A stretch of DNA of 64,000 nt from Candidatus Binatia bacterium (GTDB lineage Bacteria > Desulfobacterota > Binatia > UBA12015): positions 40,374-104,373 of the forward strand of contig DASRFA010000050.1 of NCBI GenBank assembly GCA_035651755.1. Direction: 5' to 3'. Numbering within the stretch: position 1 is the first letter of the stretch; each line of letters opens with the position of its first letter. The notes beneath the pieces are model-generated. The model ran no database searches, was not told the origin of the DNA, and worked only from the letters and a program-made list of their open reading frames with translations. Shown here piece after piece: positions 1,433 to 63,011 of this stretch. Position numbers and translations under genes: made by a program.

Positions 1433-2449
1433 CTAGCCCATCGGGTAGAGAATCTCGCGGGTGATCGCGTCGCACGCGGCGCGGAGTTCTTCCGGGAGCG
1501 TCGTTTCCGCGCCGCGGACGAGGTCGTCGAGCTGCTCGGGCCGTGTGGCTCCGACGATCGTCGACCCGACGAAGTCGTGCGCGAGCGTCCACGCGACGCC
1601 GAGGGTGACGAGCGGGAGACCGGCGTCGGCCGCGATCGCGGCGAAGCGCCGCGTCGACTCGAGGGTCTTCGCGTTCACGAAGCGGCGGGCCATCGCCTGC
1701 GTGCGCGGGCTGTGCTCTCGGTACCAGGTGAAGCGCGCGCCGGCGGGCCAGGCGCCGTCGAGGTACTTGCCGGACAGGACGCCGCCCGCGATCGGGCTGT
1801 AGGGAAGGAGGCTCACCTGCTCGCGCCGGCACACCTCCGCGAGCGCGTCCTCGAAGCGGCGGTTCAGGAGGCTCCAGTTGTTCTGGATCGTCTCGTAGCG
1901 CGGGAGCCCGTGCGCGTCGGCCGCCCAGAGGCTCTTCGTGAGGCCGTACGCCGTCTGGTTGCTGCAACCGATCGCGCGCACCTTGCCCTCGTCGACGACG
2001 CGCGCGAGCCCTTCGAGGGTCTCCTCGATCGGCAGGTCGGGATCCGGCCAGTGCGTCTGGTAGAGGTCGATGTAGTCGGTGCCGAGACGCGCGAGGCTCG
2101 CGTCCACGGCGCGCGCGATCGAGTGCCGGTCGAGCGCGGTGCGGCCGTTCCGGACCGGCGCCTGGAACCAGCCGCCGCCCGGCCCCGCGACCTTGGTCGC
2201 GACGAAGACCGCGTCGCGCGGCTTGCCGGCGAGCCACTTGCCGACGATCTCCTCGCTCCGCCCGGCCCAGCCGCGATCCGGCGGCACGGGATACACCTCG
2301 GCGACGTCGAGGAAGTCGATCCCGGCGTCGTACGCGCGGTCGAGGATCCGAAGGCTCGTCGCCTCGTCGGCCATCGAGCCGAACGTCATCGTGCCGAGGC
2401 AGATCTCCGAGACCACCAATCCCGAGCGCCCGAGCCGTCGCCGCTTCAT
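1433..2449 (-). CDS. Aldo/keto reductase (NADPH-dependent oxidoreductase).
   Basis: Internal ATG of ORF 1433..2806: MKRRRLGRSGLVVSEICLGTMTFG...DFLDVAEVY...AIGCSNQ. The AKR motifs are present and a GGAGGTGA RBS precedes the ATG. The upstream R-rich extension was rejected. Confidence 0.9.
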   Translation of the reverse strand: MKRRRLGRSGLVVSEICLGTMTFGSMADEATSLRILDRAYDAGIDFLDVAEVYPVPPDRGWAGRSEEIVGKWLAGKPRDAVFVATKVAGPGGGWFQAPVRNGRTALDRHSIARAVDASLARLGTDYIDLYQTHWPDPDLPIEETLEGLARVVDEGKVRAIGCSNQTAYGLTKSLWAADAHGLPRYETIQNNWSLLNRRFEDALAEVCRREQVSLLPYSPIAGGVLSGKYLDGAWPAGARFTWYREHSPRTQAMARRFVNAKTLESTRRFAAIAADAGLPLVTLGVAWTLAHDFVGSTIVGATRPEQLDDLVRGAETTLPEELRAACDAITREILYPMG

Positions 2450-2584
2450 CGTCACCTCCCTCGATCGCGAGCGCGCGAGCTTAGCGAATGCCCGCCGTGG
2501 CCTGCGAACAGTGTTCGATGCAATGTAACGCCCCGTACATCGGGCGTTCACGACCAACCCGCCCGCCGTGAAGGGAGGACGTAG

Positions 2585-3003
2585 ATGCCGACCGTGAAGA
2601 TCGTAGCGATCGCGCTGGCCGCACTCGTGATTGCCGTGCCGGCTTCGGCGCTCGACTGTGCTTCTACCCGACGTCACTGGTCTTCGTTGCGAAGAGCTAC
2701 AAGAGACCTTCGAGAGGGAAGTGCCGTTCGTTGACCGGATACGAGGGGTCGACGTCGGTTCCCCACGCGGCCACCGGGACGGCATGCTTGAACGCAGCCG
2801 GCACACAGCTCTACGTCAATTGGAACGTCCTGCGCGACGAAGGGACGGACATCGCATTCTACAGCGTGAGGATGAAGCTGCCCTATCCCTCCCTGACCGG
2901 TGGCTTCACCACGTTCTGCAGCAGCAGCGCGATCGCGGGGATCAATTGCGGCGCCAATTCCCCGGAGTCCGCCTTCCCGTGCGTGCCGGCGCCGCTCCCG
3001 TGA
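2585..3003 (+). pseudogene. Small secreted Cys-containing protein, apparently frameshifted. A signal-peptide ORF at 2585..2734 overlaps ORF 2731..3003 in the -1 frame.
   Basis: The ATG at 2585 encodes a textbook Sec signal peptide (MPTVKIVAIALAALVIAVPASA) and stops after 49 codons. The overlapping ORF encodes TGYEGSTSVPHAATGTACLNAAG...FTTFCSSSAIAGINCGANSPESAFPCVPAPLP. The region is about 60% GC against ~72% for its flanks. Confidence 0.4.
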
Positions 3004-3135: not shown

Positions 3136-4656
3136 ATGACCGAAAGTTCCGAAGAGCTGCGCCGCCGCGCGCCCGACCCGACTTCCGGCGCCGCCGTCGT
3201 GATCGGCGGCGGCATCACCGGGCTCGCCGCCGCGCTCGTGCTGTCGGCGCGCTTCGCTCGCGTGACGATCCTCGAGCGCGATCTCGAGCCCGACGCCGCG
3301 ACCCCGCGCGAGGCTTTCGACGTCTGGCGGCGCCGTGGCGCCGTGCAGGTGCGGCACTCGCACGCCTTCCTCGGCCGCCTCCGGAACCTGCTGCGCGACC
3401 GCCACCCCGACCTGCTGGCCGCGCTCGTCGACGCCGGAGCGCGCGAGCTCCGCATGCTGGACTTCCCGCCCGTCACGCTCGGACCCGTCCCGCCGGAGCC
3501 GGGCGACGACGACCTCGTCATGCTCGGCTGCCGGCGCATCACGTTCGAATGGGTCCTCCGCCGGTACCTCCGGGCGCGTGCGAACGTCGACATCGTCGCG
3601 GGCGCGCTCGTCGACGGGCTCGTCGCCGAGCCCGGGGATCCGCCGCGCGTCACCGGCGTGCGGTTCAGGGTGGACGGGGACGCGCGCGAGCTCACCGCTG
3701 CCATCGTCGTCGACGCGAGCGGGCGTCAATCACCGGCGCCGCGCTGGCTCGAGGAGATCGGCGCGCGCGCACCGAGGGAGGAGACGGATCCCTCGGGCAT
3801 CGTCTACTACACGCGCTTCTATCGCCTGCGGCCCGGCGCCGAGGAGCCCGCGCCCGATCGCCATCCCGGCGCGGCCGACTACAACTGGATCAAGTTCGCG
3901 ATCTTCCCGACCGACGATCGCACGTTCTCGATCACACTGGCGGCGCCGCTCGCATTTCCCGAGATGAAGGTGCTCGCGCGCACCGCCGCGTTCGACGAGG
4001 TCGCGCGCTCGCTGCCGGCGGTCGCTCGCTGGATCGACCCGGCGCGCGCCGAGCCGATCGGCGATCCCGAGCGTCCCGTCCAGGCGATGGGCGGCCTCAT
4101 CAATCGCCTGCGGCGCTTCTGCGACGAGCGCGGGCCGCTGGCACTGGGCCTCTTCGCGCTCGGCGACGCCGCGTACTGCACCAACCCGCTCTACGGGCGC
4201 GGCTGCGCCCAGGGCTTCCTCCACGCCGAGATGCTGGGAGAGGCGCTCGACCGGCATGGCGCGGACCTCGCGGCCGCCGCGCGGGCGCTCGACGCCGCCG
4301 CCCGGCGCGAGATCGAGCCGTTCTACCGGGCGTCGGTGATCGCGGACCGCGAGGCGGTCCGCAAAGCCGAAGGTCGGCGATCGCGCAGCTGGCGCGCGCG
4401 CCTCGCGCAGCGCTTCTTCGAGGACGGCGTCGCGGTCGCGACGCGCTGCGATCCCGTCGTCTATCGCGCCTTCGTGCGCATGATGAACATGCTCGAGACG
4501 CCGGAGGTCGCGTTCGGGCGGAGGAGCGTGGTCCTGCGGTCGCTCCGCGTGTGGATGCGCGGGCGCCGGCGGAACCGGGCGTACGCGATCCCCGATGGAC
4601 CCGATCGCGCCGAGGTGCTCGCGCGCTGCGAACGAGCGCTCGCGCGCGAGACCTGA
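3136..4656 (+). CDS. FAD-dependent oxidoreductase/monooxygenase.
   Basis: Rossmann dinucleotide motif VVIGGGITGLAAALVL near the N-terminus. A 506-aa protein from the internal ATG at 3136; the ORF-track start is a TTG at 3067. Confidence 0.85.
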   Translation: MTESSEELRRRAPDPTSGAAVVIGGGITGLAAALVLSARFARVTILERDLEPDAATPREAFDVWRRRGAVQVRHSHAFLGRLRNLLRDRHPDLLAALVDAGARELRMLDFPPVTLGPVPPEPGDDDLVMLGCRRITFEWVLRRYLRARANVDIVAGALVDGLVAEPGDPPRVTGVRFRVDGDARELTAAIVVDASGRQSPAPRWLEEIGARAPREETDPSGIVYYTRFYRLRPGAEEPAPDRHPGAADYNWIKFAIFPTDDRTFSITLAAPLAFPEMKVLARTAAFDEVARSLPAVARWIDPARAEPIGDPERPVQAMGGLINRLRRFCDERGPLALGLFALGDAAYCTNPLYGRGCAQGFLHAEMLGEALDRHGADLAAAARALDAAARREIEPFYRASVIADREAVRKAEGRRSRSWRARLAQRFFEDGVAVATRCDPVVYRAFVRMMNMLETPEVAFGRRSVVLRSLRVWMRGRRRNRAYAIPDGPDRAEVLARCERALARET

Positions 4657-4715: not shown

Positions 4716-5504
4716 TCACTCCTGGCAGTAGATCGCGGGCGTCGACGTGCCCGAAAACGCCGTCGCGGCGTCGACCGCGCTCTGCGCGTTCGCCGGCGGC
4801 AAGCAGGCCGGGAGCTTCTGCATCTGGTCGAGGTCCGCGATCGCTGCCGCCGCGTGGTCCGAGATCTTGTCGAAGCAGCGCTGGATCTTGTCGAGGGTGT
4901 ACTGGTCGAGCGTGCCGCCGTTCCGGAGCGCGTACGACGCCGCCCTCGAGTAGCACTTGTCCGCGGACAGCTGCGCCTTGAGGACGATCTTCGCGACCTC
5001 GTTCTCGCCGATGACCTCGCGCTTCTCGTCCGGGATGTTGAACCCGGTGACGGGATCCGGCGCGGCGCTGTCGCCATCGCAATAGACGGCGCTCACGCTC
5101 GAAGCGTGCTGGTTGTCGACGGCCGTCTTCTGCGCGTCGATCCCGGTCTGGTCGAGGCAGGAGGGAGTGCCCTTCAGGAGGAGCCTGTCGCGATGGCCGG
5201 CGTACCAGTCGTTCGCGTACTGCACGCACCCCTGCCAGCTCGCCTGGATGTCGGGGACCTTGTGCTGGTTCTGCGGCGTGTACGCGAGCTGGAGGTTCAC
5301 GAGGGCGATCGCGTCGCACTTGACGCGCTTCTTCAGATAATCCCCGAGGAGCTTCTTGACGTACTCTTCCTGCTTGAGGACGTACTTGTCCGGGGCGACG
5401 AAGCCGCCGCTCGCGAACGGCGGGTTCGGAAGCGTGGTGGCGAAGCCGGCGGCGGGAACCAAAAGCAGAGCAAACCCACACGAAGCGACCAGGTGTCGCA
5501 GCAT
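4716..5504 (-). CDS. Secreted hypothetical protein, 8 Cys, Lys-rich, with a lower GC than surroundings.
   Basis: N-terminal signal peptide MLRHLVASCGFALLLVPAAGFA, a GGGAGGG RBS upstream, and protein-like composition with no recognisable domain. Confidence 0.75.
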   Translation of the reverse strand: MLRHLVASCGFALLLVPAAGFATTLPNPPFASGGFVAPDKYVLKQEEYVKKLLGDYLKKRVKCDAIALVNLQLAYTPQNQHKVPDIQASWQGCVQYANDWYAGHRDRLLLKGTPSCLDQTGIDAQKTAVDNQHASSVSAVYCDGDSAAPDPVTGFNIPDEKREVIGENEVAKIVLKAQLSADKCYSRAASYALRNGGTLDQYTLDKIQRCFDKISDHAAAAIADLDQMQKLPACLPPANAQSAVDAATAFSGTSTPAIYCQE

Positions 5505-5570: not shown

Positions 5571-5593
5571 AAAAAAATACGGCTGGGCAGCCG
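5571..5593 (-). terminator. Putative intrinsic terminator downstream of the STAND regulator gene.
   Basis: On the minus strand, just after the stop at 5604, the RNA reads CGGCUGCCCAGCCG (5-bp stem, 4-nt loop) followed by UAUUUUUUU. Confidence 0.45.
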
Positions 5594-5603
5594 AGCGCTG
5601 GCT

Positions 5604-8600
5604 TCACGCCGATTCGGACGCGAAAGCGGCCGCCTCGCGTGCGATCGCGCCCATTCCGAGCTCGCGTGCGAGGTTCTCCGCGTCGCGCGCGGCATCGCGC
5701 GCGGCGGCCGGAACGGCCCGCCGGCGGCCCGTCCGCGACCGCGCGGCGAGCGTCCGGGCCTGATCGAGGCGCGTGATCGCGAGCCAGGGGAGGGCCCCCA
5801 TACGGTCGTGCTCCGCGCGCGCCCGCTCGAGGAGCGCGGCCGCTTCGTCCCATCGCCCGAGTGTCCGCGCGAGGAGGCCGAGAGGCCGGGTGCCGTGGCC
5901 GAGCGACGCGAGGTTCGGCCCGACGCCGATCACGCGCTCCGCGTACGGCCGGAAGAGCGCTTCGAGCGTCGCGGCCGCGCGCTCGTCAGCGAGGCCGGCG
6001 CACACCTCCGCGGCGGTCGCGATGCAGATGAGCCACACGGAATCGCGCGCGATCTGCCGGAAGCCCTCGGCCGCCAGCACGTCGAGGTCGGCGCGCGCGC
6101 CGGCGACGTCGCCCGACCGCAGCCGGACGAGGGCGAGCGTCGCGCGCGTCGAGTGCTGGTCCGGGCTCCGCTCGATCCAGGCGCTGGCCATCGTCGCCGC
6201 TTCCGCGAGCCGTCCTTCGAGGACGCGCAGCTGGAGCCGCTGGACGCCGAAGACCGGGAGGACGTTCGGGTGGTCCATGCGCCGCCCGAAGGCGGCGGCG
6301 CGCCCGATCAGCCGATCCGCCTCCGCGAGCCGGCCGTCCTGCGCCGCGCGCAGCGCCGCCAGGCGGAGCGCGAACCAGCAGAACCACGGGATCCCCGCTT
6401 CGTCCGCGAGCGCCTCGAAGTCGGCGAGCGCCTCGCCCGCCTCCGCGACGTCGCCGGCCTCGTGCAGGTCGGCGATGCGCAGCAGCTGCAGGTCGAGGGC
6501 TTGCTCCTTCGTCGTCGCGCGCCGCGCCAGCTCGCCGAGGTGGGCGGCCTCGGAGCGCAGCTCGTCGACCGCTTCCCGGCCCGAGAAGCCCCAGCGCGTG
6601 TAGCGAAGCACGCCGAGCAGGACGTCGGGGTCGTCGAGCCCGCGCGCGATCGCGATCGCGTCGCGGGCGAGCGGCTCGCGCCGCTCGTGTGCGCCGGCGA
6701 TCGGCGACAGCGCCGCGTCGAGCCGCGCGAGCAGCAGCGCGCGCAGCGCGACGTCGGCGGGCGGCACGCCGTCGAGCGCCTCCTCGAGGAGGGCGACCAG
6801 TTCTTCGTCGACGCGCGACACGACGTGATGCCCGCGACCCATCCCGAGCGCGGCCCGCGCGAACAGGTCGTGCGCTTCGGCGGCGCGCGCGAGCTCCGCG
6901 GCGCGCGCGAAGGTCGCGCGCGCGTCGCCGAGCGCGCCGCTCCGCTCTTCGGCCTCGCCGAGCGCCACGAGGACGCGGCAGCGCTCGCGCAGCGGCGCTT
7001 CCGGTGCGTGCGCGAGCGCCTCGAGCGCGAGCCGATAGTGCGCCGCCGCCTCGGCGTGCGCGTGCACGCGCTCGGCGCGCTCCGCCGCCTTCAGCGAGTG
7101 CGCGATCGCGCGCTCGACGCCCGCGGCGCCGGCGTCGAGGAAGTGGCGCGCGGTCTCCGCCGGGCTCGCGCCGATTCGCTCCTGCCATTCGCCGATCGCG
7201 CGGTGGAGCGCGGCGCGGCGCGACGGTCCGAGGCGTGCATGCAGCACCTCGCGGTGGAGCGCGTGCGCGAACGCGAACCGGCCGGACACCTCGCCATCGG
7301 GCAGCGCGGCGCTCCCGAGCGAGCGCAGGAACTGCCCGCGGCGCGCCTCGCCTTCGCACACCACCTCGACCTGCGCCGGCGGCGCGTCGAGCGCGGCCGC
7401 GACGGCCGCTGCGGCGAACTCGCCGCCAGCGACGCTCGCCGCCTCGAGCACGCGCGCGTCGTCCGCCGACAATCGCTCGAGCTGCTGCTCGATCATCTGC
7501 CGGAGTCCCTCCGGCACCTCGTCCCCGAGCTTCGCGCGCGACACGCGCCACGACGCCGCGCCGCCCACGGCGGTGAGCCAGCCGCGCTCGAGCATCTGGT
7601 CGACGAGGCTCACGACGAAGAGCGGGTTGCCGGCCGTGCGCTCGAGGACGGCTTCGGCCAGGCCCGCCGGCAGGTCGCGGACCCCGAGCCGGCGCTCGAG
7701 GTAGAGCGCGACGTGGCCGCGCTCGAGGAAAGGAAGGCACAGCTCGGCGGCGAGGCGCTGCATCTCGAGCCGATGCTTGACGACCTTCAAAGGATGCCCG
7801 GTGACGATCACGTCGACCGGGCGGTAGGTGCCGACGACCAGGAGGCGCGCCGGCGCCCGGCGATGCGCGAGCAGGGACAGCACGTCGACCGTCGACGGAT
7901 CGCTCCAGTGGAGGTCCTCGAGCGCGAGCACGAGCGCGCGGTCCCGGGTGAGCGCCTCGAGAGCCTCGGCGAGCTCGCGCAGCATGCGCTCGCGGGTCGT
8001 GCCTTGGAGCTCGCGCTGGAGCGTCTCGCGATCGCTCGCGGAGAGGAGCCACGGGAGCTGCGTGAGCCAGGTCGGCGCGACGCGGCGGAGCGCGTCCGTG
8101 ACCGGCTCCGCGTCCGGGCCGCGCGCGAGCTGGGCGAGCGCTTCGAGGATCGGGAGGTAGGCCTCGCCGCCGCCGTGGTGCTCGAGGCACTGGCCGCGCG
8201 CGACGAGCGCGCAGCCGGACGGGATCGCGGCGAGGAAGGCGTCGACCAGCGAGCTCTTGCCGATCCCGGCCTCGCCGCTGACGAACACGATCCGGCGCCG
8301 ACCCGCGCTCGCGGCGCGGAGCGCTTCGGCGAGCTGCGACAGCTCGCGCTCGCGGCCGATCGGCGCCTCCGCCGCCGCGATCGCTTCGATCGCCGCGGAC
8401 GCAGCCGGGGTCGCGAGCTCGCCCGCGCGCGGACGCTTCGCGCCGGGCGCGCCGTCGGCGCCCGCGGCGAGCGCGCCGCCGTCGCCGACCGCGTCCGCGC
8501 GCACCTCCGCGATGAAGCGGTACCCTCGGCGGTGCACGGTCTCGATGAAGCGCGGCGCCTCCGCCTCGTCCTGGAGCAGGGCGCGGATCTCGCGCACGCG

Positions 8601-8810
8601 GACCTTGAGGACGCCGTCCGCGACGTACGTGTCCGGCCAGATCGCTTCCAGGAGCTCGTCCTTCGTCACGAGGCGGCCGGCGTGCTCGACCAGGTAGTGG
8701 AGGACCGCGAAGCTCTTGGGCGGCATCGCCAGGCGGCGATCGCCGTGCCAGAGCGATTCGTCGCGTACGTCGAGGCGGTAGGGGCCGAAGGCGAGGCGCG
8801 GACCGCCCAC
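5604..8810 (-). CDS. Large signal-transducing ATPase. An N-terminal OmpR/PhoB-type winged-helix DNA-binding domain is followed by a STAND/AAA NTPase and TPR-like repeats (AfsR/MalT-like regulator).
   Basis: N-terminus ...LAMPPKSFAVLHYLVEHAGRLVTKDELLEAIWPD...RGYRFIA is a trans_reg_C domain. The Walker A motif is VFVSGEAGIGKSSLV, the hhhhD Walker B is LVLALEDLHWSD, and a long Ala/Leu-rich helical repeat region fills the C-terminus. 1068 aa. Confidence 0.85.
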   Translation of the reverse strand: MGGPRLAFGPYRLDVRDESLWHGDRRLAMPPKSFAVLHYLVEHAGRLVTKDELLEAIWPDTYVADGVLKVRVREIRALLQDEAEAPRFIETVHRRGYRFIAEVRADAVGDGGALAAGADGAPGAKRPRAGELATPAASAAIEAIAAAEAPIGRERELSQLAEALRAASAGRRRIVFVSGEAGIGKSSLVDAFLAAIPSGCALVARGQCLEHHGGGEAYLPILEALAQLARGPDAEPVTDALRRVAPTWLTQLPWLLSASDRETLQRELQGTTRERMLRELAEALEALTRDRALVLALEDLHWSDPSTVDVLSLLAHRRAPARLLVVGTYRPVDVIVTGHPLKVVKHRLEMQRLAAELCLPFLERGHVALYLERRLGVRDLPAGLAEAVLERTAGNPLFVVSLVDQMLERGWLTAVGGAASWRVSRAKLGDEVPEGLRQMIEQQLERLSADDARVLEAASVAGGEFAAAAVAAALDAPPAQVEVVCEGEARRGQFLRSLGSAALPDGEVSGRFAFAHALHREVLHARLGPSRRAALHRAIGEWQERIGASPAETARHFLDAGAAGVERAIAHSLKAAERAERVHAHAEAAAHYRLALEALAHAPEAPLRERCRVLVALGEAEERSGALGDARATFARAAELARAAEAHDLFARAALGMGRGHHVVSRVDEELVALLEEALDGVPPADVALRALLLARLDAALSPIAGAHERREPLARDAIAIARGLDDPDVLLGVLRYTRWGFSGREAVDELRSEAAHLGELARRATTKEQALDLQLLRIADLHEAGDVAEAGEALADFEALADEAGIPWFCWFALRLAALRAAQDGRLAEADRLIGRAAAFGRRMDHPNVLPVFGVQRLQLRVLEGRLAEAATMASAWIERSPDQHSTRATLALVRLRSGDVAGARADLDVLAAEGFRQIARDSVWLICIATAAEVCAGLADERAAATLEALFRPYAERVIGVGPNLASLGHGTRPLGLLARTLGRWDEAAALLERARAEHDRMGALPWLAITRLDQARTLAARSRTGRRRAVPAAARDAARDAENLARELGMGAIAREAAAFASESA

Positions 8811-8875
8811 GCCCGTCGTTCTACCGGGACCGTGAAAAGGCGTTCAACCCTTCCTGCCAACGCCGCCGGCCCGAT

Positions 8876-8906
8876 CGTCACCGAATCGTGACCGGGCCGT
8901 CATGAC
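8876..8906. promoter_or_regulatory. Palindromic motifs in the promoter region of the STAND regulator and small ORF: GTCACcgaatcGTGAC and GTCATGAC.
   Basis: Read directly from the sequence: 5-bp inverted arms with a 6-nt spacer, immediately followed by a perfect 8-bp palindrome that overlaps the ATG at 8902. Confidence 0.3.
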
Positions 8907-8970
8907 TCGCCGGGCGGGCTCGCCCTATCGACGGGGCGTGAGGACCAAGGCGAAGGACGGAAGGGCCGGG

Positions 8971-9165
8971 ATGCTGCCGCCCGAGGCGGCCTTCGTGCTG
9001 CAGCTGCAGTCCGGGGCCGCCATCGCGGGCGATCGGCTCGTCGGACGGGTCGAGCACGTGAAGTCGGGCCGGGCCGCGCGCTTTCGCTCGATCGACGAGC
9101 TGCTCGTGTTCATTCGAGGGACGCTCGCGTCGGCCGATCGGAAGCCGTCGCTCGACGATCCATGA
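8971..9165 (+). CDS. Small hypothetical protein of ~64 aa.
   Basis: Internal ATG of ORF 8902..9165 preceded by GGAAGG: MLPPEAAFVLQLQSGAAIAGDRLVGRVEHVKSGRAARFRSIDELLVFIRGTLA... The composition is protein-like. It ends 90 bp before the SDR start. Confidence 0.4.
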   Translation: MLPPEAAFVLQLQSGAAIAGDRLVGRVEHVKSGRAARFRSIDELLVFIRGTLASADRKPSLDDP

Positions 9166-9257: not shown

Positions 9258-10028
9258 ATGGCCGGGCGCCTCGCGGGCAAGGTCGCGATCGTCACGGGCG
9301 CGAGCCGGGGCATCGGCCGCGCGATCGCGGAGCGCTTCGCGCGCGAGGGCGCGGCCGTCGTGCTGGTGGCGCGCACGGCGGAGCGGCTCGACGAGGTCGC
9401 GGCCGGCATCGCGCGCGACGGCGGCTCGGCCGCGGTGCTCGCGGGCGACGCCACGACCGAGGCCGTGAACGCGCGCATGGTCGAGCTCGCGGAGCGGCGC
9501 TTCGGCCGCGTGACGACCCTGGTCGCGAACATGGGCGCCGACTTGACGGCGACGGTCGCGGACACGACGCCGGCCGACTGGAACGCGTGCCTCGCGAGCG
9601 ACCTGAGCCATCTCCACCTCGGCGCGCGCGCCGCGCTGCCGTCGATGATCGCGGCCGGGGGCGGCGCGATCGTCGCGATCGCCTCGACGGCCGCGCTCCG
9701 GGGCATCCCGAATCACGCGGCTTACTGTGCCGCGAAGGCCGGGCTCGCGAGCCTCACGCGATCGATCGCAGTCGACTACGGGCGCCGCGGCGTGCGCGCG
9801 AACTGCATCTGCCCGGGCGCGATCGAGACCGAGATGCTGGCCGCGTGGCTTCGCAGCTTCGGCGACGCCGAGGCCGACGTGCGCGCCCGGCTTCTCGCGC
9901 GCTCGCCGCTCGATCGCATGGGGCGCGCCGACGAGATCGCGAGCGTCGCCTGCTTCCTCGCCTCGGACGAGGCGTCCTACGTGACCGGCGTGGTCATCCC
10001 GGTCGACGGGGGCACGAGCGCGGCTTGA
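9258..10028 (+). CDS. Short-chain dehydrogenase/reductase (SDR) family oxidoreductase.
   Basis: MAGRLAGKVAIVTGASRGIGRAIA (TGxxxGxG), NMG, and the catalytic YCAAK motif. Internal ATG of ORF 9162..10028. Confidence 0.9.
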   Translation: MAGRLAGKVAIVTGASRGIGRAIAERFAREGAAVVLVARTAERLDEVAAGIARDGGSAAVLAGDATTEAVNARMVELAERRFGRVTTLVANMGADLTATVADTTPADWNACLASDLSHLHLGARAALPSMIAAGGGAIVAIASTAALRGIPNHAAYCAAKAGLASLTRSIAVDYGRRGVRANCICPGAIETEMLAAWLRSFGDAEADVRARLLARSPLDRMGRADEIASVACFLASDEASYVTGVVIPVDGGTSAA

Positions 10029-10051: not shown

Positions 10052-11206
10052 TCACGGTCGCGGCAGGTGCGAAGCGTCGATCACGGCCTGCCAGATGTCG
10101 GAGCCGATGAAGATCCCGGAGACCCACGGCGGGTCGAGCACGACGTCGCTCGAGTACCAGGCGGTCGCGAAGCGGTGGTCGTCGATGGCGGCGACGCCGG
10201 CATACGAGGTGTCGCCCGCGCTCGGGACCTCGCCGTGCTCGAAGATGCCGATCGGCCCGCCGTCGAGCTCGCCCGTGATCTCGTAGAGCGCGGTGCGCTT
10301 GCGATTGTCGAGCCCGAGGTGCTTGCGCGCGATCACGAAGAGCCGCCCGCGCCACCAGAACGCGACCGGCCCGTCGAGCCGGACGCCCTCGAGCTCCTGC
10401 GGGCAGTCCCAGGCGTCGTACGGCGGCGTCGCCCAGCAGACCTTCGTCCGGAGCCGGCGGTTGCCGCTCAGCTCGGGGTCGGTGCCGTCCATGCGGACGA
10501 GGCCCAGCATCCGGCCCGATGGCACGACGACGAGCTCCGTCTCGAGCGGCGTGTCCTCCGACACGCCGTAGATCTCCGCGCCGCGCTCCCAGTGGAGCCC
10601 GTCCTGCGAGCGGAAGAGCACGACGCGCAGGTCGCCGTCCTCGTACGCCGCCGAGTAGAGCGTTCCGCCGGTCTCGGTCACGCGCCAGAACCCGAAGCGC
10701 ACCGGGCCGATGTCCGTCGGCATCGACCACGCGCGCCCGTCGTCCGAGTGCGTTTCGATCGAGATCGAGTCGACCGCCGTGTCGCGGAGGCCGATCCCGG
10801 GCAGGCGCGTGATCGCCTTGATGAAGAGCCGTCCGTCGCGCTGGTAGAACGACGGGTCTCGGATGTCGCGCCCGTTCACCGCGGGAATGATCGACTGCAG
10901 CTCGAACGACCGCCCGTCCTCGGAGCGGTACACGCGCAGCGAGCTGTTCGGCCCGAGCACCTGGCTGAGCGCGGTGCGGTGGACGAGCCAGATCGCGCCG
11001 TCGAAGCGCGTCATGTCGCAGTTCTCGTTGTGGCGGCAGACGCCGGTCCGGCAATCGTCGTTCGCGACGCCGACGCCGGGAACGAGGATCGCGGCGTTCT
11101 CGAGGAACGCGCCGTCGGGCGCCGGCGCGTCGGAGCAGCCGACGAGCGCGGCGAGCGCGCCTGCGGCAACGGCCGCGCAGAGACGGTCGCGGCGAAGCTC
11201 TCTCAT
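10052..11206 (-). CDS. Lipoprotein, β-propeller (BNR/sialidase-like) fold, hypothetical.
   Basis: MRELRRDRLCAAVAAGALAALVGCSD has a lipobox, and the rest of the sequence is rich in W/D/G β-strand character. Internal ATG of ORF 10052..11248. Confidence 0.7.
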   Translation of the reverse strand: MRELRRDRLCAAVAAGALAALVGCSDAPAPDGAFLENAAILVPGVGVANDDCRTGVCRHNENCDMTRFDGAIWLVHRTALSQVLGPNSSLRVYRSEDGRSFELQSIIPAVNGRDIRDPSFYQRDGRLFIKAITRLPGIGLRDTAVDSISIETHSDDGRAWSMPTDIGPVRFGFWRVTETGGTLYSAAYEDGDLRVVLFRSQDGLHWERGAEIYGVSEDTPLETELVVVPSGRMLGLVRMDGTDPELSGNRRLRTKVCWATPPYDAWDCPQELEGVRLDGPVAFWWRGRLFVIARKHLGLDNRKRTALYEITGELDGGPIGIFEHGEVPSAGDTSYAGVAAIDDHRFATAWYSSDVVLDPPWVSGIFIGSDIWQAVIDASHLPRP

Positions 11207-11240
11207 GGGGCAACCTCGTGTGGGCCGGCCTTGTCGGCTG

Positions 11241-12644
11241 TCAAGCAACTGCGGGCGGGATCGCGACCCGGTGGTCGGGGTGGGCGCGCTCGAGCGCGAA
11301 CGCGATCCGGAGCGCGCGCCCGTCCTCGCCCGTCGGCGCGATCACCTGGATCGCGAGCGGGAGCCCTTCGCTCGATCCGGCGGGAAGCGAGACGGCGGGG
11401 AAACCGACCAGGTTCGCGGCGCCCGTGTACGGAACGGCGCGCGGGGTGAGCGCGAGCTCTTCCTGGTCGATGCGCGGCGCCTTGAATGGAGAGACCGGCG
11501 ACACGATCGCGTCGACCTCGCAGAACGCCTCGGCGTAGCCGCGCGCGATCCGCTGGCGATCGCGCTGCATGTCGATCCAGAGCCCGGGGTCCGGCTCGAG
11601 CGAGCGCGAGCGGATCATCTCCACCTGCGGGCTGAAGCGCTTCGGGCGGTCGCCGATCAGGCGGTCGGTGAGCGTGCCGCCCTCGATGCCGAACACGCCC
11701 ATCACGCCGCGCAGCACGAGCGACTGGCTCGGCAGCGCGATCTGCACGATGCGCGCGCCGAGGTCGGCGAGGCGGCGCACCGTGGCCTCGTAGGCGGCGC
11801 GCACGTCGGGGTCGGGCTCGGGCACGAGGAGGTCGTCGCTGACGCCGATCCGGAGCCCTTCGACGCCGCGCTCGAGCTCGCCGAGGAGATCGGGCACGGG
11901 GTGGGGAAGCGAGTACAGGTACGCGGGGTCGAAGCCCGCGAGGAGCTGCGAGGCGAGCGCAGCGTCGCGGACGCTCCGCACCAGAGGTCCCGGCACGGAG
12001 AACGACGTGCCCTCGCCGCCGAACTGGCCGCGGATGCTCAGGAGCCCGAGCGTCGGCTTGTGCCCGACGACGCCGCAGAACGCGGCCGGGAAGCGGATCG
12101 ACCCGCCGCCGTCCGTTCCGACGTGGAGCGGGCCCATGAGCGCCGCCGCGGCGGCGCTCGCGCCGCCGCTCGACCCGCCCGGGACGTGGTCGCGGTTCCA
12201 CGGGTTCCGCGTCGCGCCGAAGAAGAAGTTGTTCGTCGTCAGGCCGAGGCCGAGCTCGTGAGTCGCCGTCTTGCCGGTCACGATCGCGCCGAGAGCCTTC
12301 AGGCGCTCGGGCATGCCGCCGTCGCTCGCGGGGACATGGTCGGCGAACATGCCGCTCCCGTACGTCGTCCGGAGGCCGGCGGTGTCGATCAGGTCCTTGA
12401 CGCTCGCGGGGATGCCGTGGAGCGGTCCGAGGTAGCGACCGTGCGCGATCTCGTCGGCGGCGCGGCGCGCGGCCTGCATGACCTGATCGCGCGGGACGAG
12501 GGTCGTGAAGGCGTTGAGCTCCGGGTTCAGGCGCTCGATCTGGTCGTAGACCGCGCTCGCGAGGTCGACCGGGGAGAGGTCGCCGCGCCGCACTCGATCG
12601 GCGGCCTCGGCGAGCGAAAGGCGAAGCAGCTCGACGTTCGGCAT
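11241..12644 (-). CDS. Amidase (amidase-signature family).
   Basis: MPNVELLRLSLAEAADRV...GGSSGGASAAAAALMGPLHVGTDGGGSIRFPAAFCG is the AS signature. 467 aa. The upstream 1000 aa of ORF 11241..15674 is R-rich antisense to the next gene and was rejected. Confidence 0.9.
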   Translation of the reverse strand: MPNVELLRLSLAEAADRVRRGDLSPVDLASAVYDQIERLNPELNAFTTLVPRDQVMQAARRAADEIAHGRYLGPLHGIPASVKDLIDTAGLRTTYGSGMFADHVPASDGGMPERLKALGAIVTGKTATHELGLGLTTNNFFFGATRNPWNRDHVPGGSSGGASAAAAALMGPLHVGTDGGGSIRFPAAFCGVVGHKPTLGLLSIRGQFGGEGTSFSVPGPLVRSVRDAALASQLLAGFDPAYLYSLPHPVPDLLGELERGVEGLRIGVSDDLLVPEPDPDVRAAYEATVRRLADLGARIVQIALPSQSLVLRGVMGVFGIEGGTLTDRLIGDRPKRFSPQVEMIRSRSLEPDPGLWIDMQRDRQRIARGYAEAFCEVDAIVSPVSPFKAPRIDQEELALTPRAVPYTGAANLVGFPAVSLPAGSSEGLPLAIQVIAPTGEDGRALRIAFALERAHPDHRVAIPPAVA

Positions 12645-17289: not shown

Positions 17290-17397
17290 CGAGCACCTCC
17301 CGCAGCCGCCCTATCACCCCGCAGGTTTTGCGTCACACCAGGATCGGGCGGGCGGCTGCTAAAGCGACGCAGCATCGCCGGCCGATAACGAAAAAGA

Positions 17398-19299
17398 ATG
17401 AGCCTGGGCACCGACATGCCGTGCCCGCCAGTCACCCCGTCCGGCGCCGGGCCGGGCGCCGGTTCCTTCTATCGCGGCCGGGTCCGGTGGTTCCTCCTGG
17501 TCACCTGCCTGGGGTGGATCTCGTTCGCCGTCCAGAACGCGCCACAGGGACGGTGGATCGCGAGCGCGATCAACCTGGTCGCGGCCGGCTCGACGTTCGC
17601 GCTGTGGCGCTGGGTCCGGGCCTCGGAAGACGACCGCCGAGCCCGCATCGCTTCGCACGCGGCGCTCGCCGTGTCCTCCCTCGGGATCACGGGGATCGCG
17701 CTCACGAGCGGGCAGTCCGAGTCGATGTCGGTCTGGTACCTCGCGGCGATCCCGATGTTCGCGGCGCACCTCCTGAGCGCCGGCGCGGCCGCGGCGTGGT
17801 CCGGGATCGCGATCGCGGCCATGGCGCTCGTGCACCTGAGCGAGCTCTTCGTCACGATCCCGCCCGAGTACACCGCCGTCGGCACGGAGCTGCTGGTCGC
17901 GCGCGCTCTGTTCGTCCTGGTCCTGCTCGGGTTCGCGCTCGCGTCGTGGCGGCTCACGGCGCGCCACGTGACGGCGCTCGAGGAGCGCGAGCGGACGATC
18001 TCCCACCAGGCGCGCGAGCTGACGGTCGCGCGCGACGAGGCGCTCGAGGCGTCGCGCGTCAAGAGCGAATTCCTTGGCCGGATGAGCCACGAGCTCCGGA
18101 CGCCCATGCACGGCGTGATCGGCATGACCGGGCTCCTTCTCGAGACGCGGCTCGACGACGCGCAGCGCGAGTTCGCCGAGACCGTCCATCGCTCGGGCGA
18201 GACTCTGCTCGCGATCGTGGACGACATCCTCGACTTCGCGGAGATCGAGGCCGGTCGCATCGAGCTCGAGACGCGCCGGTTCGAGCCGGTGCAGGTGACG
18301 CGCGAGGCGGTCGCGTTCTTCCAGCAGCGTGCCGAGCAGAAGGGAATCGCGGTTCGGCTCCACGTCGAGCCGGGCGTGCCGGACGAGGTGGAGGGCGACC
18401 GCCGGCGCCTGCGACAGCTGCTGATGATTCTCGTCGGCAACGCCGTCAAGTTCACGGGCGAGGGCGGCATCGACGTGCGCCTCGCGCCGCTGTCCGACGC
18501 GCCATGCGGGCTCCGCTGCACGGTGACGGACACCGGGATCGGGATCGATACGGAGCATCGCGCGCGCGTCTTCGAGGCCTTCTCGCAGGTCGACGGGTCG
18601 ATGACCCGCCGACACGGCGGCACCGGGCTCGGGCTCGCGCTCGCGAGCCGGCTCGTCGCGCTGATGGGCGGCGAGATCGGCGTCGAGAGCGAGCCCGGGA
18701 GGGGGAGCTCGTTCTGGTTCACGGCCCGCCTCGGGCAGTCGCCGGCGCCGGAAGCGGCTCGCGAGGCGGCGGACAGCGCTCGCCCGGCGCGTGCTCCCGC
18801 GGCCTCGGAGCCCGAGCGCGCGGCGCCGCCTCCCATGCCCGATCCGGCAGCCGCGCGCGCTCGCGATCGCGCCGTCCATCCCCTGCGGCGCGGTCGGATC
18901 CTCGTCGCGGACGACAACGACATCAACCAGCGCGTCGCGGTGCGGATGCTCGAGCGCCTGGGCTTCGCCGTCGACGTCGCGGGCGACGGCCGGGAAGCCG
19001 TCCAGGCGGTCCAGGTCTCGAGCTACGACCTCGTCCTCATGGATTGCCAGATGCCCGAGATGGACGGGCTCGCGGCCACGGCGGAGATCCGGCGCGCGGA
19101 GAACGGCGTCCGCCACACGCCGATCGTCGCGATGACGGCCAACGTCGCGCCCGGCGACCGCGAGCGCTGCATCGCGGCCGGGATGGACGCGTTCCTCGCG
19201 AAGCCCGTGAAGCGCGATGCGCTCGCCGCGGTGCTCGCGCGCTTCGTGAGCGCGCAGGACGGGGCGGGCTCGCCGCCGGCGGGGTCATCCGCCGCCTAG
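17398..19299 (+). CDS. Hybrid sensor histidine kinase/response regulator: membrane sensor, HisKA, HATPase_c and a C-terminal receiver domain.
   Basis: N-terminal TM segments; the H-box SEFLGRMSHELRTPMHGVIG; the G1/G2 boxes DTGIGI and GGTGLGLALA; and the receiver motifs ILVADDNDINQ ... DLVLMDCQMPEMDG ... AKP. Confidence 0.9.
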   Translation: MSLGTDMPCPPVTPSGAGPGAGSFYRGRVRWFLLVTCLGWISFAVQNAPQGRWIASAINLVAAGSTFALWRWVRASEDDRRARIASHAALAVSSLGITGIALTSGQSESMSVWYLAAIPMFAAHLLSAGAAAAWSGIAIAAMALVHLSELFVTIPPEYTAVGTELLVARALFVLVLLGFALASWRLTARHVTALEERERTISHQARELTVARDEALEASRVKSEFLGRMSHELRTPMHGVIGMTGLLLETRLDDAQREFAETVHRSGETLLAIVDDILDFAEIEAGRIELETRRFEPVQVTREAVAFFQQRAEQKGIAVRLHVEPGVPDEVEGDRRRLRQLLMILVGNAVKFTGEGGIDVRLAPLSDAPCGLRCTVTDTGIGIDTEHRARVFEAFSQVDGSMTRRHGGTGLGLALASRLVALMGGEIGVESEPGRGSSFWFTARLGQSPAPEAAREAADSARPARAPAASEPERAAPPPMPDPAAARARDRAVHPLRRGRILVADDNDINQRVAVRMLERLGFAVDVAGDGREAVQAVQVSSYDLVLMDCQMPEMDGLAATAEIRRAENGVRHTPIVAMTANVAPGDRERCIAAGMDAFLAKPVKRDALAAVLARFVSAQDGAGSPPAGSSAA

Positions 19300-30108: not shown

Positions 30109-30192
30109 GGTGTATGGGACTCGGCGCGGCGGCAAGCGCGGTGGGCGCTGCAGGCGTGCCACGCTTGAATCGCTTCAGCGCATCCGTCGTCA

Positions 30193-31203: not shown

Positions 31204-31275
31204 GCCCAGCGTTCCTAGCGCCGGTAGGTGACGGCCTGATGACGCGGCGATGATCGTTGGCGGACCGAATGCGCT

Positions 31276-34034
<2,759 letters not shown>

Positions 34035-62024: not shown

Positions 62025-63011
<987 letters not shown>

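What the first reader, a model, noticed from the sequence alone, without database searches (positions are those of the whole stretch)
5571..8970. wHTH-STAND NTPase-TPR giant regulator with palindromic motifs in its promoter region
The 1068-aa protein joins an N-terminal OmpR/PhoB-type winged helix directly to a P-loop STAND NTPase and a long helical repeat region. That architecture is used by AfsR/MalT-like transcription regulators, but it is also reminiscent of antiviral STAND (Avs-like) sensors. Its upstream region contains GTCAC-N6-GTGAC and a perfect GTCATGAC palindrome that overlaps a small ORF (8971..9165). A hairpin-U7 terminator follows the gene. It is flanked by a low-GC secreted Cys-rich protein gene (4716..5504).
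Basis: partly seen in the sequence, partly recalled or inferred. Interest (0 to 1): 0.5.

Follow-up and report, generated by a model that had tools for sequence, protein, structure and literature searches.

The report
STAND transcription regulator with small partner gene
This is a large ATP-dependent transcription regulator from an uncultured Binatia bacterium. It most likely switches on a neighbouring, previously undescribed small-protein gene by binding three evenly spaced DNA repeats, and the same regulator, small gene and repeat arrangement recurs in many soil and sediment bacteria.

Summary
The 1068-aa gene (5604-8810, minus strand) encodes an OmpR/PhoB-type winged helix, a disordered linker, a STAND P-loop NTPase with intact Walker motifs, and about 540 residues of TPR-like repeats. 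The repeats are seen by structure prediction only, not by Pfam.

No evidence supports an antiviral (Avs-like) role. The protein is not a SARP because it has no BTAD domain. It is not a MalT/LAL regulator because it has no LuxR HTH.

The "palindromes" are better read as three head-to-tail 11-bp repeats (8874-8906, core CGTSA). These run into a -35-like TGACT, an 18-nt spacer, a TATCGA and the GTG at 8938 of the small ORF.

That small ORF is a real gene. It belongs to an unannotated family of about 3,500 cluster representatives, with no Pfam or NCBIfam model. In related loci it sits beside regulators of this family.
- 39 divergent regulator/small-gene pairs were found among 166 loci, and 11 bp is the dominant repeat period in 26 of them.
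- Repeat sequence changes together with the regulator's recognition helix.
- The small protein and its regulator diversify together (Mantel r 0.75).

The closest known analogues are PimR (three heptamers with 4-bp spacers) and AfsR with afsS. The signal sensed and the role of the small protein are unknown.

The parts
5604..8810 (-). Regulator CDS, 1068 aa, GTG start (NCBI HZR83499.1 'AAA family ATPase')
   Evidence: ORF and translation. GC3 is 0.93. Identical products are on record.
8493..8810 (-). N-terminal OmpR/PhoB-type winged-helix DNA-binding domain (residues 1-106). The recognition helix is about residues 63-78 (VADGVLKVRVREIRAL).
   Evidence: Pfam Trans_reg_C at 26-99, E 9e-19. PDB sequence hits to PhoB, OmpR, CadC and ToxR DNA-binding domains. 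AF2 model. Foldseek match to the CadC DNA-binding domain, TM 0.82.
8418..8489 (-). Ala/Gly-rich disordered linker (residues 108-131). It occupies the place where a SARP would have its BTAD domain.
   Evidence: pLDDT below 50 over residues 108-131. No BTAD hit.
7221..8408 (-). STAND nucleotide-binding oligomerisation module (residues about 135-530), made of a P-loop NBD, a helical domain and a winged-helix domain. Walker A GEAGIGKS is at residues 179-186 (nt 8253-8276). Walker B LEDLHW is at residues 297-302 (nt 7905-7922). An invariant His lies in FAHALH (residues 514-519).
   Evidence: AAA_16 E 2e-28. Invariant columns G179, G182, G184, K185, E298, D299 and H516 in 63 homologues. Motif positions. 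Foldseek hits to 6MFV (STAND-TPR), MalT 8BOB and CED-4.
5607..7220 (-). C-terminal TPR-like helical-repeat (sensor) region, residues about 531-1068. The part beyond about residue 650 is the variable half of the family.
   Evidence: AF2 model shows an all-helical solenoid. Foldseek hits to the APC/C TPR subunits, Ski3 and Tom70. Homologues carry TPR_12, TPR_19 and TPR_MalT Pfam hits. Only the closest relatives align beyond residue 650.
5571..5593 (-). Intrinsic-terminator-like hairpin (CGGCTGCCCAGCCG) followed by T7, after the regulator stop codon
   Evidence: The T7 run is unique in the window (0.01 expected).
8874..8906 (+). Predicted operator: three head-to-tail 11-bp repeats, ATCGTCACCGA / ATCGTGACCGG / GCCGTCATGAC.
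   Evidence: CGTSA-N6-CGTSA-N6-CGTSA is unique in the window, 0.00 expected. Period 11 is the best self-similarity period here and in about 26 of 39 homologous intergenic regions. The orthologue L085 keeps the array. The recognition helix and the repeat sequence vary together.
8903..8931 (+). Predicted activator-dependent promoter of the small gene: -35-like TGACT (8903-8907), an 18-nt spacer, and -10-like TATCGA (8926-8931), which lies 6 nt before GTG 8938
   Evidence: The composite [GT]GACT-N16-19-TAnnn[ACT] occurs in 15 of 39 intergenic regions in the small-gene orientation, against 4 in the opposite orientation. Shuffles give a mean of 1.65 and a maximum of 6. The consensus sigma-70 scan finds nothing here.
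8938..9165 (+). Conserved small-protein gene. It is 75 aa from GTG 8938 (NCBI HZR83500.1) or 64 aa from ATG 8971. The predicted fold is three beta strands and one alpha helix, with the signature AFV..-loop-GRVEHVxSG-..F.S..EL..F.
   Evidence: HMM E 1e-24. Family alignments A1 and A2. 1190 and 3499 database hits, all unnamed. AF2 pLDDT 83.7. No Pfam, NCBIfam, PADLOC or PDB match.
9258..10028 (+). SDR-family oxidoreductase gene, 92 nt downstream of the small gene on the same strand. It is probably the co-transcribed 'cargo'. All public gene calls start it at 9258, not at the ATGA overlap at 9162.
   Evidence: Pfam adh_short_C2 E 1.5e-60. Exact-sequence look-up. No terminator-like site between 9165 and 9258.
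8818..8847 (-). Candidate promoter of the regulator itself: TTGAAC (8847-8842), an 18-nt spacer, and TAGAAC (8823-8818), which lies 7 nt before GTG 8810. This rests on inspection only.
   Evidence: Read directly. Not tested statistically and not found by the consensus scan.

Best explanation
The gene encodes a cytoplasmic one-component signal-transducing transcription activator of the STAND class.

**Proposed mechanism.**
1. In the resting state the TPR-like C-terminal arm holds the ADP-bound NTPase closed.
2. Binding of a still unknown ligand to the repeat arm allows ATP binding and oligomerisation of the NTPase modules.
3. Oligomerisation lines up the N-terminal OmpR/PhoB-type winged helices head to tail.
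4. The winged helices occupy three 11-bp-phased direct repeats (8874-8906), one per helical turn. These repeats abut and overlap a weak -35-like element.
5. RNA polymerase is recruited to the divergent promoter (TGACT-N18-TATCGA). It transcribes a probably leaderless mRNA that starts at or near GTG 8938 and encodes a conserved 64-75-aa protein, most likely together with the downstream SDR oxidoreductase.

The regulator, the repeat array and the small gene form a module that has been duplicated and inherited as a unit in many soil and sediment phyla. The genes downstream of the small gene differ from locus to locus.

**Shown here.** The domain architecture, the intact ATPase motifs, family-wide linkage to the small gene, family-wide 11-bp arrays oriented towards the small gene, and covariation between recognition helix and repeat sequence.

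**Inferred.** Actual binding, activation rather than repression, the ATP and ligand dependence, the leaderless start, and any function of the small protein. My best guess for the small protein is a downstream effector or feedback partner of the regulator, by analogy with AfsR and AfsS.
For: **Architecture.**
- Trans_reg_C and AAA_16 hits.
- AF2 model with pLDDT 92.3: wHTH 1-106, disordered linker 108-131, NBD, helical domain and WHD to about residue 530, and a helical solenoid to 1067.
- Foldseek top hit is 6MFV (STAND-TPR, E 2e-9). MalT 8BOB, CED-4 and many TPR proteins follow.
- Walker A and B motifs and a WHD histidine are invariant in 63 homologues.

**Linkage to the small gene.**
- Homologues of the small gene lie in 50 of 160 regulator-anchored loci. 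There are 39 divergent pairs in all.
- Starting from the small protein instead, 5 of 5 contexts contain a Trans_reg_C/AAA_16 gene nearby; in 4 it lies upstream on the opposite strand, directly adjacent in 3 and behind an inserted transposase in 1.
- Pairwise identity of the small proteins tracks that of their regulators (Mantel r 0.75, p 0.0005, 30 pairs).

**Operator.**
- Period 11 gives the best self-similarity in about 26 of 39 paired intergenic regions, out of 13 periods tested.
- Period 11 is also best in 39 of 121 upstream regions of unpaired regulators, against 4 coding-sequence controls from the same regulators.
- It is best in 7 of 15 regions upstream of small genes that are not divergently arranged.
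- The window triple repeat is unique, with 0.00 expected.
- The orthologue L085 keeps a phased array in which the first two units are direct repeats (GTAAC/GTAAC), and it keeps GTCATGACT.
- Regulators that share a recognition helix share repeat cores: SETTLTNCI with TGTGA, SESxLTGCI with AGAAC, and xDxVLKVRx with GT[CGA]AC.

**Promoter and direction.** [GT]GACT-N16-19-TAnnn occurs in 15 of 39 regions facing the small gene, against 4 of 39 in the opposite orientation. Shuffles give a mean of 1.65.

**Precedent.**
- PimR is a SARP joined to an LAL-type P-loop module. Its main operator is three heptamers with 4-bp spacers (PMC5930380).
- AfsR is a SARP-NOD-TPR protein. It binds two 11-bp direct repeats that overlap the -35 element of the small-protein gene afsS (PMC10936776).
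Against: - There are no experimental data for any member of this family. No paper describing it was found in the held library.
- Taken alone, the window's 11-bp self-similarity score (15 of 22) is not significant against shuffles when all periods are allowed (p about 0.13). The case rests on the family-wide pattern and on a pattern that was defined after seeing the data.
- The consensus sigma-70 scan finds no promoter in this region. The -35 and -10 assignments come from a motif I derived from the same loci in which I then counted it.
- About two thirds of the family's regulators in the sampled loci have no adjacent small gene, so the small gene is not an obligatory partner.
- The array lies between two divergent genes, symmetrically placed in this window (64-65 bp from each start). 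Repression or autoregulation is therefore not excluded.
Confidence: 0.68

Rival explanations
1. The regulator binds as a symmetric dimer to the inverted repeats GTCAC-N6-GTGAC and GTCATGAC.
For: Both palindromes are present. GTCAC-N6-GTGAC is rare, with 0.08 expected. GTCATGAC(T) is conserved in the orthologous locus L085.
Against: - In L085 the first two units are GTAAC-N6-GTAAC, which is a direct repeat and not an inverted one.
- The corresponding promoter-proximal elements in L005 and L082 (GTTATGACT) are not palindromic.
- Across 39 pairs the signal is a direct 11-bp periodicity with 3 to 5 units.
- Established knowledge: OmpR/PhoB-type and SARP winged helices bind direct repeats head to tail (PMC10936776, PMC5930380).
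- GTCATGAC alone is expected 0.62 times per window.
Confidence: 0.1
2. The protein binds the repeat array but acts mainly as a repressor or autoregulator of the divergent promoters, and not as an activator of the small gene.
For: - The array lies between two divergent genes. In several loci it sits 0-40 bp from the regulator's start codon.
- 11-bp arrays also occur upstream of regulators that have no small gene.
- OmpR/PhoB-family proteins can repress; an example is ArcA acting on three direct repeats (PMC4173790, title and abstract).
Against: - The arrays travel with the small gene even when it is not next to the regulator's start.
- The arrays are positioned directly upstream of, or overlapping, a weak -35-like element at a fixed distance from a -10-like hexamer that faces the small gene. 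This is the geometry of activator-dependent promoters (PhoB; SARPs).
- The characterised transcription-factor STANDs (MalT, AfsR, PimR) are activators. This statement rests on established knowledge.
Confidence: 0.15
3. It is an antiviral STAND (Avs-like) sensor whose N-terminal domain is the effector.
For: It has the tripartite STAND layout with a large, rapidly diversifying repeat sensor. There are many paralogues per genome.
Against: - There are no PADLOC matches for the regulator or the small protein.
- The N-terminal domain is a canonical DNA-binding wHTH with cognate operator-like repeats.
- The neighbours are oxidoreductases and exported proteins, not defence genes.
- No Avs structure appears among the top 50 Foldseek hits.
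Confidence: 0.03
4. It is a pathway-specific SARP/AfsR-type activator of a secondary-metabolite gene cluster.
For: It shares the wHTH + NTPase + TPR layout and the 11-bp direct repeats. The NTPase-TPR part also shows sub-threshold similarity to TOMM_kin_cyc.
Against: - There is no BTAD domain.
- There are no biosynthetic genes in the surroundings.
- No neighbour other than the small gene is conserved among homologous loci.
- The genes downstream of the small gene are heterogeneous.
- The TOMM_kin_cyc score is 115 bits against a cut-off of 706.
Confidence: 0.04

Closest known systems
PimR-type SARP-LAL regulators (Streptomyces natalensis PimR, PteR, FilR, ScnRI)
   Same: - N-terminal OmpR-type winged helix joined to an LAL-type (AAA_16-like) P-loop module, with no LuxR HTH.
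- The main operator is three direct repeats with an 11-bp period (a heptamer plus a 4-bp spacer).
- Monomers bind cooperatively.
- There is one adjacent target gene (PMC5930380).
   Different: - PimR has a BTAD domain after the wHTH. This protein has a disordered linker there instead.
- The PimR operator does not overlap the -35 element.
- PimR's target is a PAS-LuxR regulator gene, not a small beta-beta-beta-alpha protein.
- PimR belongs to actinomycete biosynthetic clusters. This family is spread over Binatia, deltaproteobacterial lineages, Acidobacteriota, Methylomirabilota and others.
- No direct sequence comparison with PimR was run.
AfsR / AfsS of Streptomyces coelicolor
   Same: - wHTH effector + NOD + TPR.
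- It binds 11-bp direct repeats that overlap the -35 element of a weak promoter and recruits RNA polymerase.
- The direct target is an adjacent gene for a small protein (PMC10936776).
   Different: - AfsR has a BTAD domain and an NB-ARC-type NOD. Here NB-ARC scores only E 0.089, while AAA_16 scores 2e-28.
- AfsR does not appear in the PDB sequence search or among the top 50 Foldseek hits.
- The afs box has two repeats; here there are three or more.
- From my own knowledge, AfsS is a repeat-containing, probably disordered protein. It is unrelated to the folded small protein found here.
- AfsR is controlled by Ser/Thr phosphorylation. No kinase is linked to this gene.
MalT (Escherichia coli) and the STAND-TPR protein PH0952 (PDB 6MFV)
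   Same: - The fold of the NBD, helical domain, WHD and repeat arm is shared (Foldseek E 1.4e-6 and 2e-9).
- Homologues carry the TPR_MalT Pfam domain.
- From established knowledge, MalT multimerises when it binds ATP and its inducer, and it then occupies arrays of repeated boxes.
   Different: - MalT's DNA-binding domain is a C-terminal LuxR-type HTH. Here it is an N-terminal wHTH.
- There is no detectable sequence similarity at E 0.001 outside the wHTH.
HilA / CadC / ToxR-type one-component wHTH regulators
   Same: The OmpR/PhoB-type wHTH is N-terminal and there is no receiver domain. The best NCBIfam and PDB similarity for the DNA-binding domain is to these proteins. HilA also carries C-terminal TPR-like repeats (my own knowledge).
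   Different: None of them has a P-loop NTPase. CadC and ToxR are membrane proteins. All scores are far below the family cut-offs.

Membership tests
STAND NTPases (signal transduction ATPases with numerous domains) | P-loop NTPase domain with Walker A and Walker B motifs | tested here: met
   AAA_16 E 2e-28. GEAGIGKS at residues 179-186 and LEDLHW at 297-302, invariant in 63 homologues.
STAND NTPases (signal transduction ATPases with numerous domains) | NBD followed by a helical domain and a winged-helix domain, then a C-terminal repeat sensor, with an N-terminal effector domain | tested here: met
   AF2 model with pLDDT 92.3. Foldseek best hit 6MFV (STAND-TPR), also MalT NOD and CED-4.
STAND NTPases (signal transduction ATPases with numerous domains) | Nucleotide-dependent oligomerisation triggered by a ligand | not testable with these tools
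   This needs biochemistry, such as size-exclusion chromatography or cryo-EM with and without ATP and ligand.
SARP (Streptomyces antibiotic regulatory protein) family, including AfsR and PimR | OmpR-type wHTH immediately followed by a bacterial transcriptional activation domain (BTAD) | tested here: not met
   The wHTH is present, but there is no BTAD hit at E 0.1. Residues 108-131 are a disordered linker that leads straight into the NTPase.
SARP (Streptomyces antibiotic regulatory protein) family, including AfsR and PimR | Operators made of direct repeats spaced 11 (or 22) bp apart, close to or overlapping the -35 element | tested here: met
   Sequence level only. The defining statement is taken from PMC10936776.
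MalT / LAL (large ATP-binding LuxR-family) regulators | C-terminal LuxR-type HTH DNA-binding domain | tested here: not met
   No GerE/LuxR hit. The C-terminus is a helical-repeat solenoid that runs to residue 1067.
Avs / antiviral STAND defence proteins | Match to the Avs, bNACHT or other defence-system models | tested here: not met
   PADLOC gives 0 families for the regulator and nothing meaningful for the small protein.
Avs / antiviral STAND defence proteins | A cell-killing effector domain | tested here: not met
   The N-terminal domain is a transcription-factor wHTH.
Avs / antiviral STAND defence proteins | Defence-island context | tested here: not met
   No defence-related family appears among the neighbouring genes.
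OmpR/PhoB response regulators | N-terminal phospho-receiver domain upstream of the wHTH | tested here: not met
   There is no Response_reg hit. The wHTH starts at residue 5 of the protein.
wHTH-AAA_16-TPR regulator + small 'GRVEHVxSG' protein module (defined here; not a published family) | Adjacent gene for a small protein that matches the A2 profile | tested here: met
   The window ORF scores E 1e-24 against the A2 profile. It lies divergent from the regulator, with the two starts 128-161 bp apart depending on which start is taken for the small gene.
wHTH-AAA_16-TPR regulator + small 'GRVEHVxSG' protein module (defined here; not a published family) | Array of three or more 11-bp direct repeats, followed by [GT]GACT-N16-19-TAnnn, upstream of the small gene | tested here: met
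   Repeats at 8874-8906, then TGACT, 18 nt, and TATCGA.

The most novel reading that the evidence does not exclude
The wHTH-STAND-TPR regulator and the small beta-beta-beta-alpha 'GRVEHVxSG' protein form a widespread and so far undescribed two-gene signalling module. It is found in Binatia, Acidobacteriota, Methylomirabilota, deltaproteobacterial lineages and Entotheonella, often in many copies per genome. In this reading the small protein is not just the first gene of the target operon. It is a dedicated partner of the regulator, acting either as a feedback ligand or adaptor for the TPR or NOD region, or as the module's downstream effector. That would make it a non-homologous counterpart of AfsR and AfsS.
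Probability: 0.4. Interest if true: 0.65.

Novelty: new variant of a known kind. Interest (0 to 1): 0.5.

Why it matters
Thousands of these large proteins are annotated only as 'AAA family ATPase' or 'wHTH / TPR protein', and nothing is known about what they control. This analysis gives the family three testable properties:
- a predicted operator grammar of three or more 11-bp direct repeats placed at the -35 region;
- a predicted direct target gene;
- a recognition-helix to repeat-sequence correspondence that could be used to predict regulons in uncultured soil bacteria.

It also brings to light a family of about 3,500 sequence clusters of small proteins that has no Pfam or NCBIfam model. Their tight linkage and co-diversification with STAND regulators suggest a regulatory role. 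If the AfsR/AfsS-like logic holds, then 'a STAND regulator switches on an adjacent small-protein gene' is a recurring design outside the actinomycetes.

Tried and rejected
- **Defence role.** PADLOC scans of the regulator and the small protein gave nothing.
- **Conserved target pathway.** tblastn of all window neighbours against 165 related loci found only the small gene recurrently. An SDR appears in 4 loci. The Cys-rich protein, the FAD oxidoreductase and the 398-aa ORF appear in none. The genes downstream of the small gene are heterogeneous.
- **Closer orthologues.** The genome and metagenome scans gave nothing closer than 51% identity with DNA held. Of the 57-59% identical proteins from the protein database, only one (L085) could be read with its DNA.
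- **Further operator copies in the window.** The two-unit pattern, with one mismatch allowed, gave 5 matches against 10 expected. There is therefore no sign of additional regulon members in these 64 kb.
- **ATGA overlap of the small gene and the SDR at 9162.** Rejected, because every public gene call starts the SDR at 9258.
- **Literature.** Six full-text searches found no description of a BTAD-less wHTH-AAA_16-TPR family or of the small protein.

Full report
**Observation**

The window has about 73% G+C. The exact proteins are on record from a Candidatus Binatia metagenome-assembled genome.

The ORF 5604..8810 on the minus strand is 1068 aa with a GTG start and GC3 of 0.93. No earlier in-frame start exists. 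NCBI (HZR83499.1, 'AAA family ATPase') and JGI call the same product.

Pfam finds Trans_reg_C at residues 26-99 and AAA_16 at 151-326, and no TPR family at E 0.1.

- GTCAC-N6-GTGAC at 8877-8892, with 0.08 expected per window.
- GTCATGAC at 8899-8906, with 0.62 expected, so unremarkable alone.
- A short G+C hairpin followed by the only T7 run in the 64 kb, 11 nt after the stop codon.
- The small ORF that ends at 9165.
- A gene of lower G+C at 4716-5504 that encodes a signal-peptide protein with 9 Cys.

**Anatomy of the regulator**

An AlphaFold model was built on 63 homologues and is confident (pLDDT 92.3). It shows these regions:
- a winged helix at residues 1-106;
- a disordered Ala/Gly-rich linker at 108-131;
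- a P-loop domain, a helical domain and a winged-helix domain, running to about residue 530;
- a continuous helical-hairpin solenoid to residue 1067.

Foldseek against the PDB puts the STAND-TPR protein 6MFV first (E 2e-9). The MalT NOD (8BOB), CED-4 and a long list of TPR proteins (APC/C subunits, Ski3, Tom70) follow. The CadC DNA-binding domain matches the N-terminus.

Walker A (GEAGIGKS, 179-186), Walker B (LEDLHW, 297-302) and a histidine in the winged-helix domain (FAHALH, 514-519) are invariant in the alignment.

Sequence search of the PDB returns only wHTH domains. NCBIfam gives only a far-sub-threshold match of residues 120-615 to the NTPase-TPR part of TOMM_kin_cyc. PADLOC gives nothing.

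**The family**

The protein belongs to a very large family that carries only generic annotation.
- More than 4,995 proteins match at E < 1e-10.
- Hundreds of loci are found in MAGs of Binatia, deltaproteobacterial lineages, Acidobacteriota, Methylomirabilota and Entotheonella, and in the cultured Solimonas aquatica. Several copies often occur in one genome.
- The closest relatives are 57-59% identical.
- Most relatives align only over residues 1 to about 640, so the distal repeat arm diversifies.

**The small ORF is a real, conserved partner gene**

tblastn and a profile HMM find homologues of the small ORF in 50 of 160 regulator-anchored loci. There are 39 cases in which it lies within 800 bp of the regulator's start on the opposite strand, including the window and loci fetched through the small protein. 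In others it lies just downstream of the regulator.

Starting from the small protein instead, 5 of 5 contexts contain a Trans_reg_C/AAA_16 gene nearby. In four of them it lies upstream on the opposite strand; in one of those a transposase has been inserted in between.

The family signature is AFVVQ-(variable loop)-GRVEHVxSG-xxxF-S-xxELxxF. It has 1,190 hits in the word-indexed database and 3,499 cluster representatives in the exhaustive HMM search. All are stand-alone proteins of about 60-160 aa, and every one that carries a source name is called 'hypothetical protein'.

Pairwise identities of the small proteins track those of their cognate regulators (Mantel r 0.63-0.77, p 0.0005, 30 pairs). 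The two genes are therefore inherited and duplicated together.

No other neighbour is conserved. The genes downstream of the small gene are diverse: an SDR, ECF sigma factors, another HTH-AAA regulator, and many exported proteins. In the window the next gene is an SDR. Its public gene calls start at 9258, not at the ATGA overlap at 9162.

**The 'palindromes' are three 11-bp direct repeats**

Read on the plus strand, 8874-8906 is ATCGTCACCGA / ATCGTGACCGG / GCCGTCATGAC. The pattern CGTSA-N6-CGTSA-N6-CGTSA is unique in the window with 0.00 expected, although I chose that pattern after seeing the sequence.

The window's 11-bp self-similarity is not significant on its own (p about 0.13). The family-level signal is strong:
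- Among 13 periods tested, 11 bp is the best in about 26 of 39 paired intergenic regions.
- It is the best in 39 of 121 upstream regions of unpaired regulators, against 4 coding-sequence controls from the same regulators.
- It is the best in 7 of 15 regions upstream of small genes that are not divergent from a regulator.

Examples of the repeated units are AACTCTCAGCT x3 (L007), TTCCAAGAACT x3 (L141) and TCTGTGAAGTT / TCTGTGAACTT / TCTGAGGACTT (L012).

In L085, the locus of the 58%-identical orthologue, the same position reads GAGTAACCCCG / ACGTAACCGCG / CGGTCATGACT. The first two units there are direct repeats and not inverted ones. This argues against the dyad reading.

Regulators with the same recognition helix have the same repeat core:
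- SETTLTNCI goes with TGTGA.
- SESxLTGCI goes with AGAAC.
- xDxVLKVRx, which includes the window protein, goes with GT[CGA]AC.

This points to the adjacent regulator as the protein that binds the array.

**Promoter geometry**

Immediately after the array, or merged with its last unit, most loci have GGACT or TGACT. A TAnnnn hexamer follows 16-19 nt later.

This composite occurs in 15 of 39 regions in the small-gene orientation and in 4 of 39 in the opposite orientation. Shuffles give a mean of 1.65 and a maximum of 6. The motif was derived from these same loci, so it needs independent confirmation.

In the window it reads TGACT (8903-8907), 18 nt, TATCGA (8926-8931), 6 nt, then GTG 8938, which is NCBI's start for the 75-aa product. 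L085 and L004 have TGACT or GGACT, 17 nt, TAGGTC, 7-9 nt, then ATG. This suggests leaderless transcripts.

By inspection only, the regulator itself may have TTGAAC-N18-TAGAAC-N7-GTG at 8847-8808.

**Mechanism and comparison with known systems**

The best-supported model is an activator of the STAND type. An unknown ligand acts on the repeat arm. ATP-dependent oligomerisation then aligns the winged helices on three phased repeats at the -35 region. This switches on the small gene together with its variable downstream genes.

The operator grammar matches PimR, which uses three heptamers with 4-bp spacers (PMC5930380). It also matches AfsR, which uses two 11-bp repeats overlapping the -35 element of afsS, itself a small-protein gene (PMC10936776).

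Membership of those families fails on defining features:
- There is no BTAD domain, so it is not a SARP.
- There is no LuxR HTH, so it is not a MalT/LAL regulator.
- There is no receiver domain, so it is not a response regulator.
- There are no defence-model hits, so it is not filed as Avs.

It works like PimR and AfsR but is a separate, uncharacterised lineage.

**What remains open**

None of the following has been established: binding itself, the sign of regulation, the signal sensed, and the role of the small protein. The small protein could be only a target, a feedback partner, or a downstream effector. The experiments listed under next steps would settle these points.

**Verdict**

The regulator is an ordinary kind of protein. 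It belongs to an unstudied family with a conserved, unannotated small partner gene and a clear predicted operator. Interest is moderate.

Noticed in passing
window 31228-31244 (-): This is the only other exact two-unit match to the operator core with 11-bp spacing (CGTCATCAGGCCGTCAC). It lies between two convergent genes (30169-30894 on the plus strand, 31276-32292 on the minus strand), so it is unlikely to be a promoter site. Matches in the window overall are fewer than expected by chance.
   Followed up: partly
window 1433-2806 (-) and about 62091-63011 (-): These are two aldo/keto reductase paralogues (32% identity). In the first, the Aldo_ket_red domain starts only at residue 134. The ORF therefore has either a long N-terminal extension or a start codon called too early.
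   Followed up: no
window 8808-8847 (-) and 8903-8940 (+): Both divergent genes appear to have a -10-like hexamer 6-7 nt before their GTG start codons (TAGAAC-N7-GTG and TATCGA-N6-GTG). This suggests leaderless mRNAs. L085 and L004 show the same pattern for the small gene.
   Followed up: partly
L110 about 3650-3865 and the ORF 12 nt downstream; L012 3733-4020 and 11750-11896: Some loci carry two copies of the small-protein gene. In L110 they are in tandem, and in L012 they are 8 kb apart.
   Followed up: no
L005, L007 and L108 (genes immediately downstream of the small gene): In these loci the downstream gene is itself a regulator. It is an HTH_XRE-AAA_16/22 STAND-like protein in L005 and an ECF sigma factor in L007 and L108. 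This hints at regulatory cascades.
   Followed up: partly
L081 10713-12219: On the contig that also carries a small-family gene next to a sigma-54 activator, an unrelated 82-aa ORF followed by an SDR lies convergent with a 1045-aa Trans_reg_C/AAA_16 gene. The gene set resembles the window's, but the arrangement is different.
   Followed up: no
window 10052-11248 (-) and 4716-5504 (-): These are two well-supported coding regions (GC3 0.92-0.93) with no Pfam family. One is a 398-aa ORF whose exact product is not on record, so its start has probably been called differently elsewhere. The other is the 262-aa exported protein with 9 Cys.
   Followed up: no
window 17389-19299 (+): A hybrid histidine kinase (HisKA, HATPase_c and a receiver domain) lies 8 kb from the regulator. 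No link to the finding was seen.
   Followed up: no
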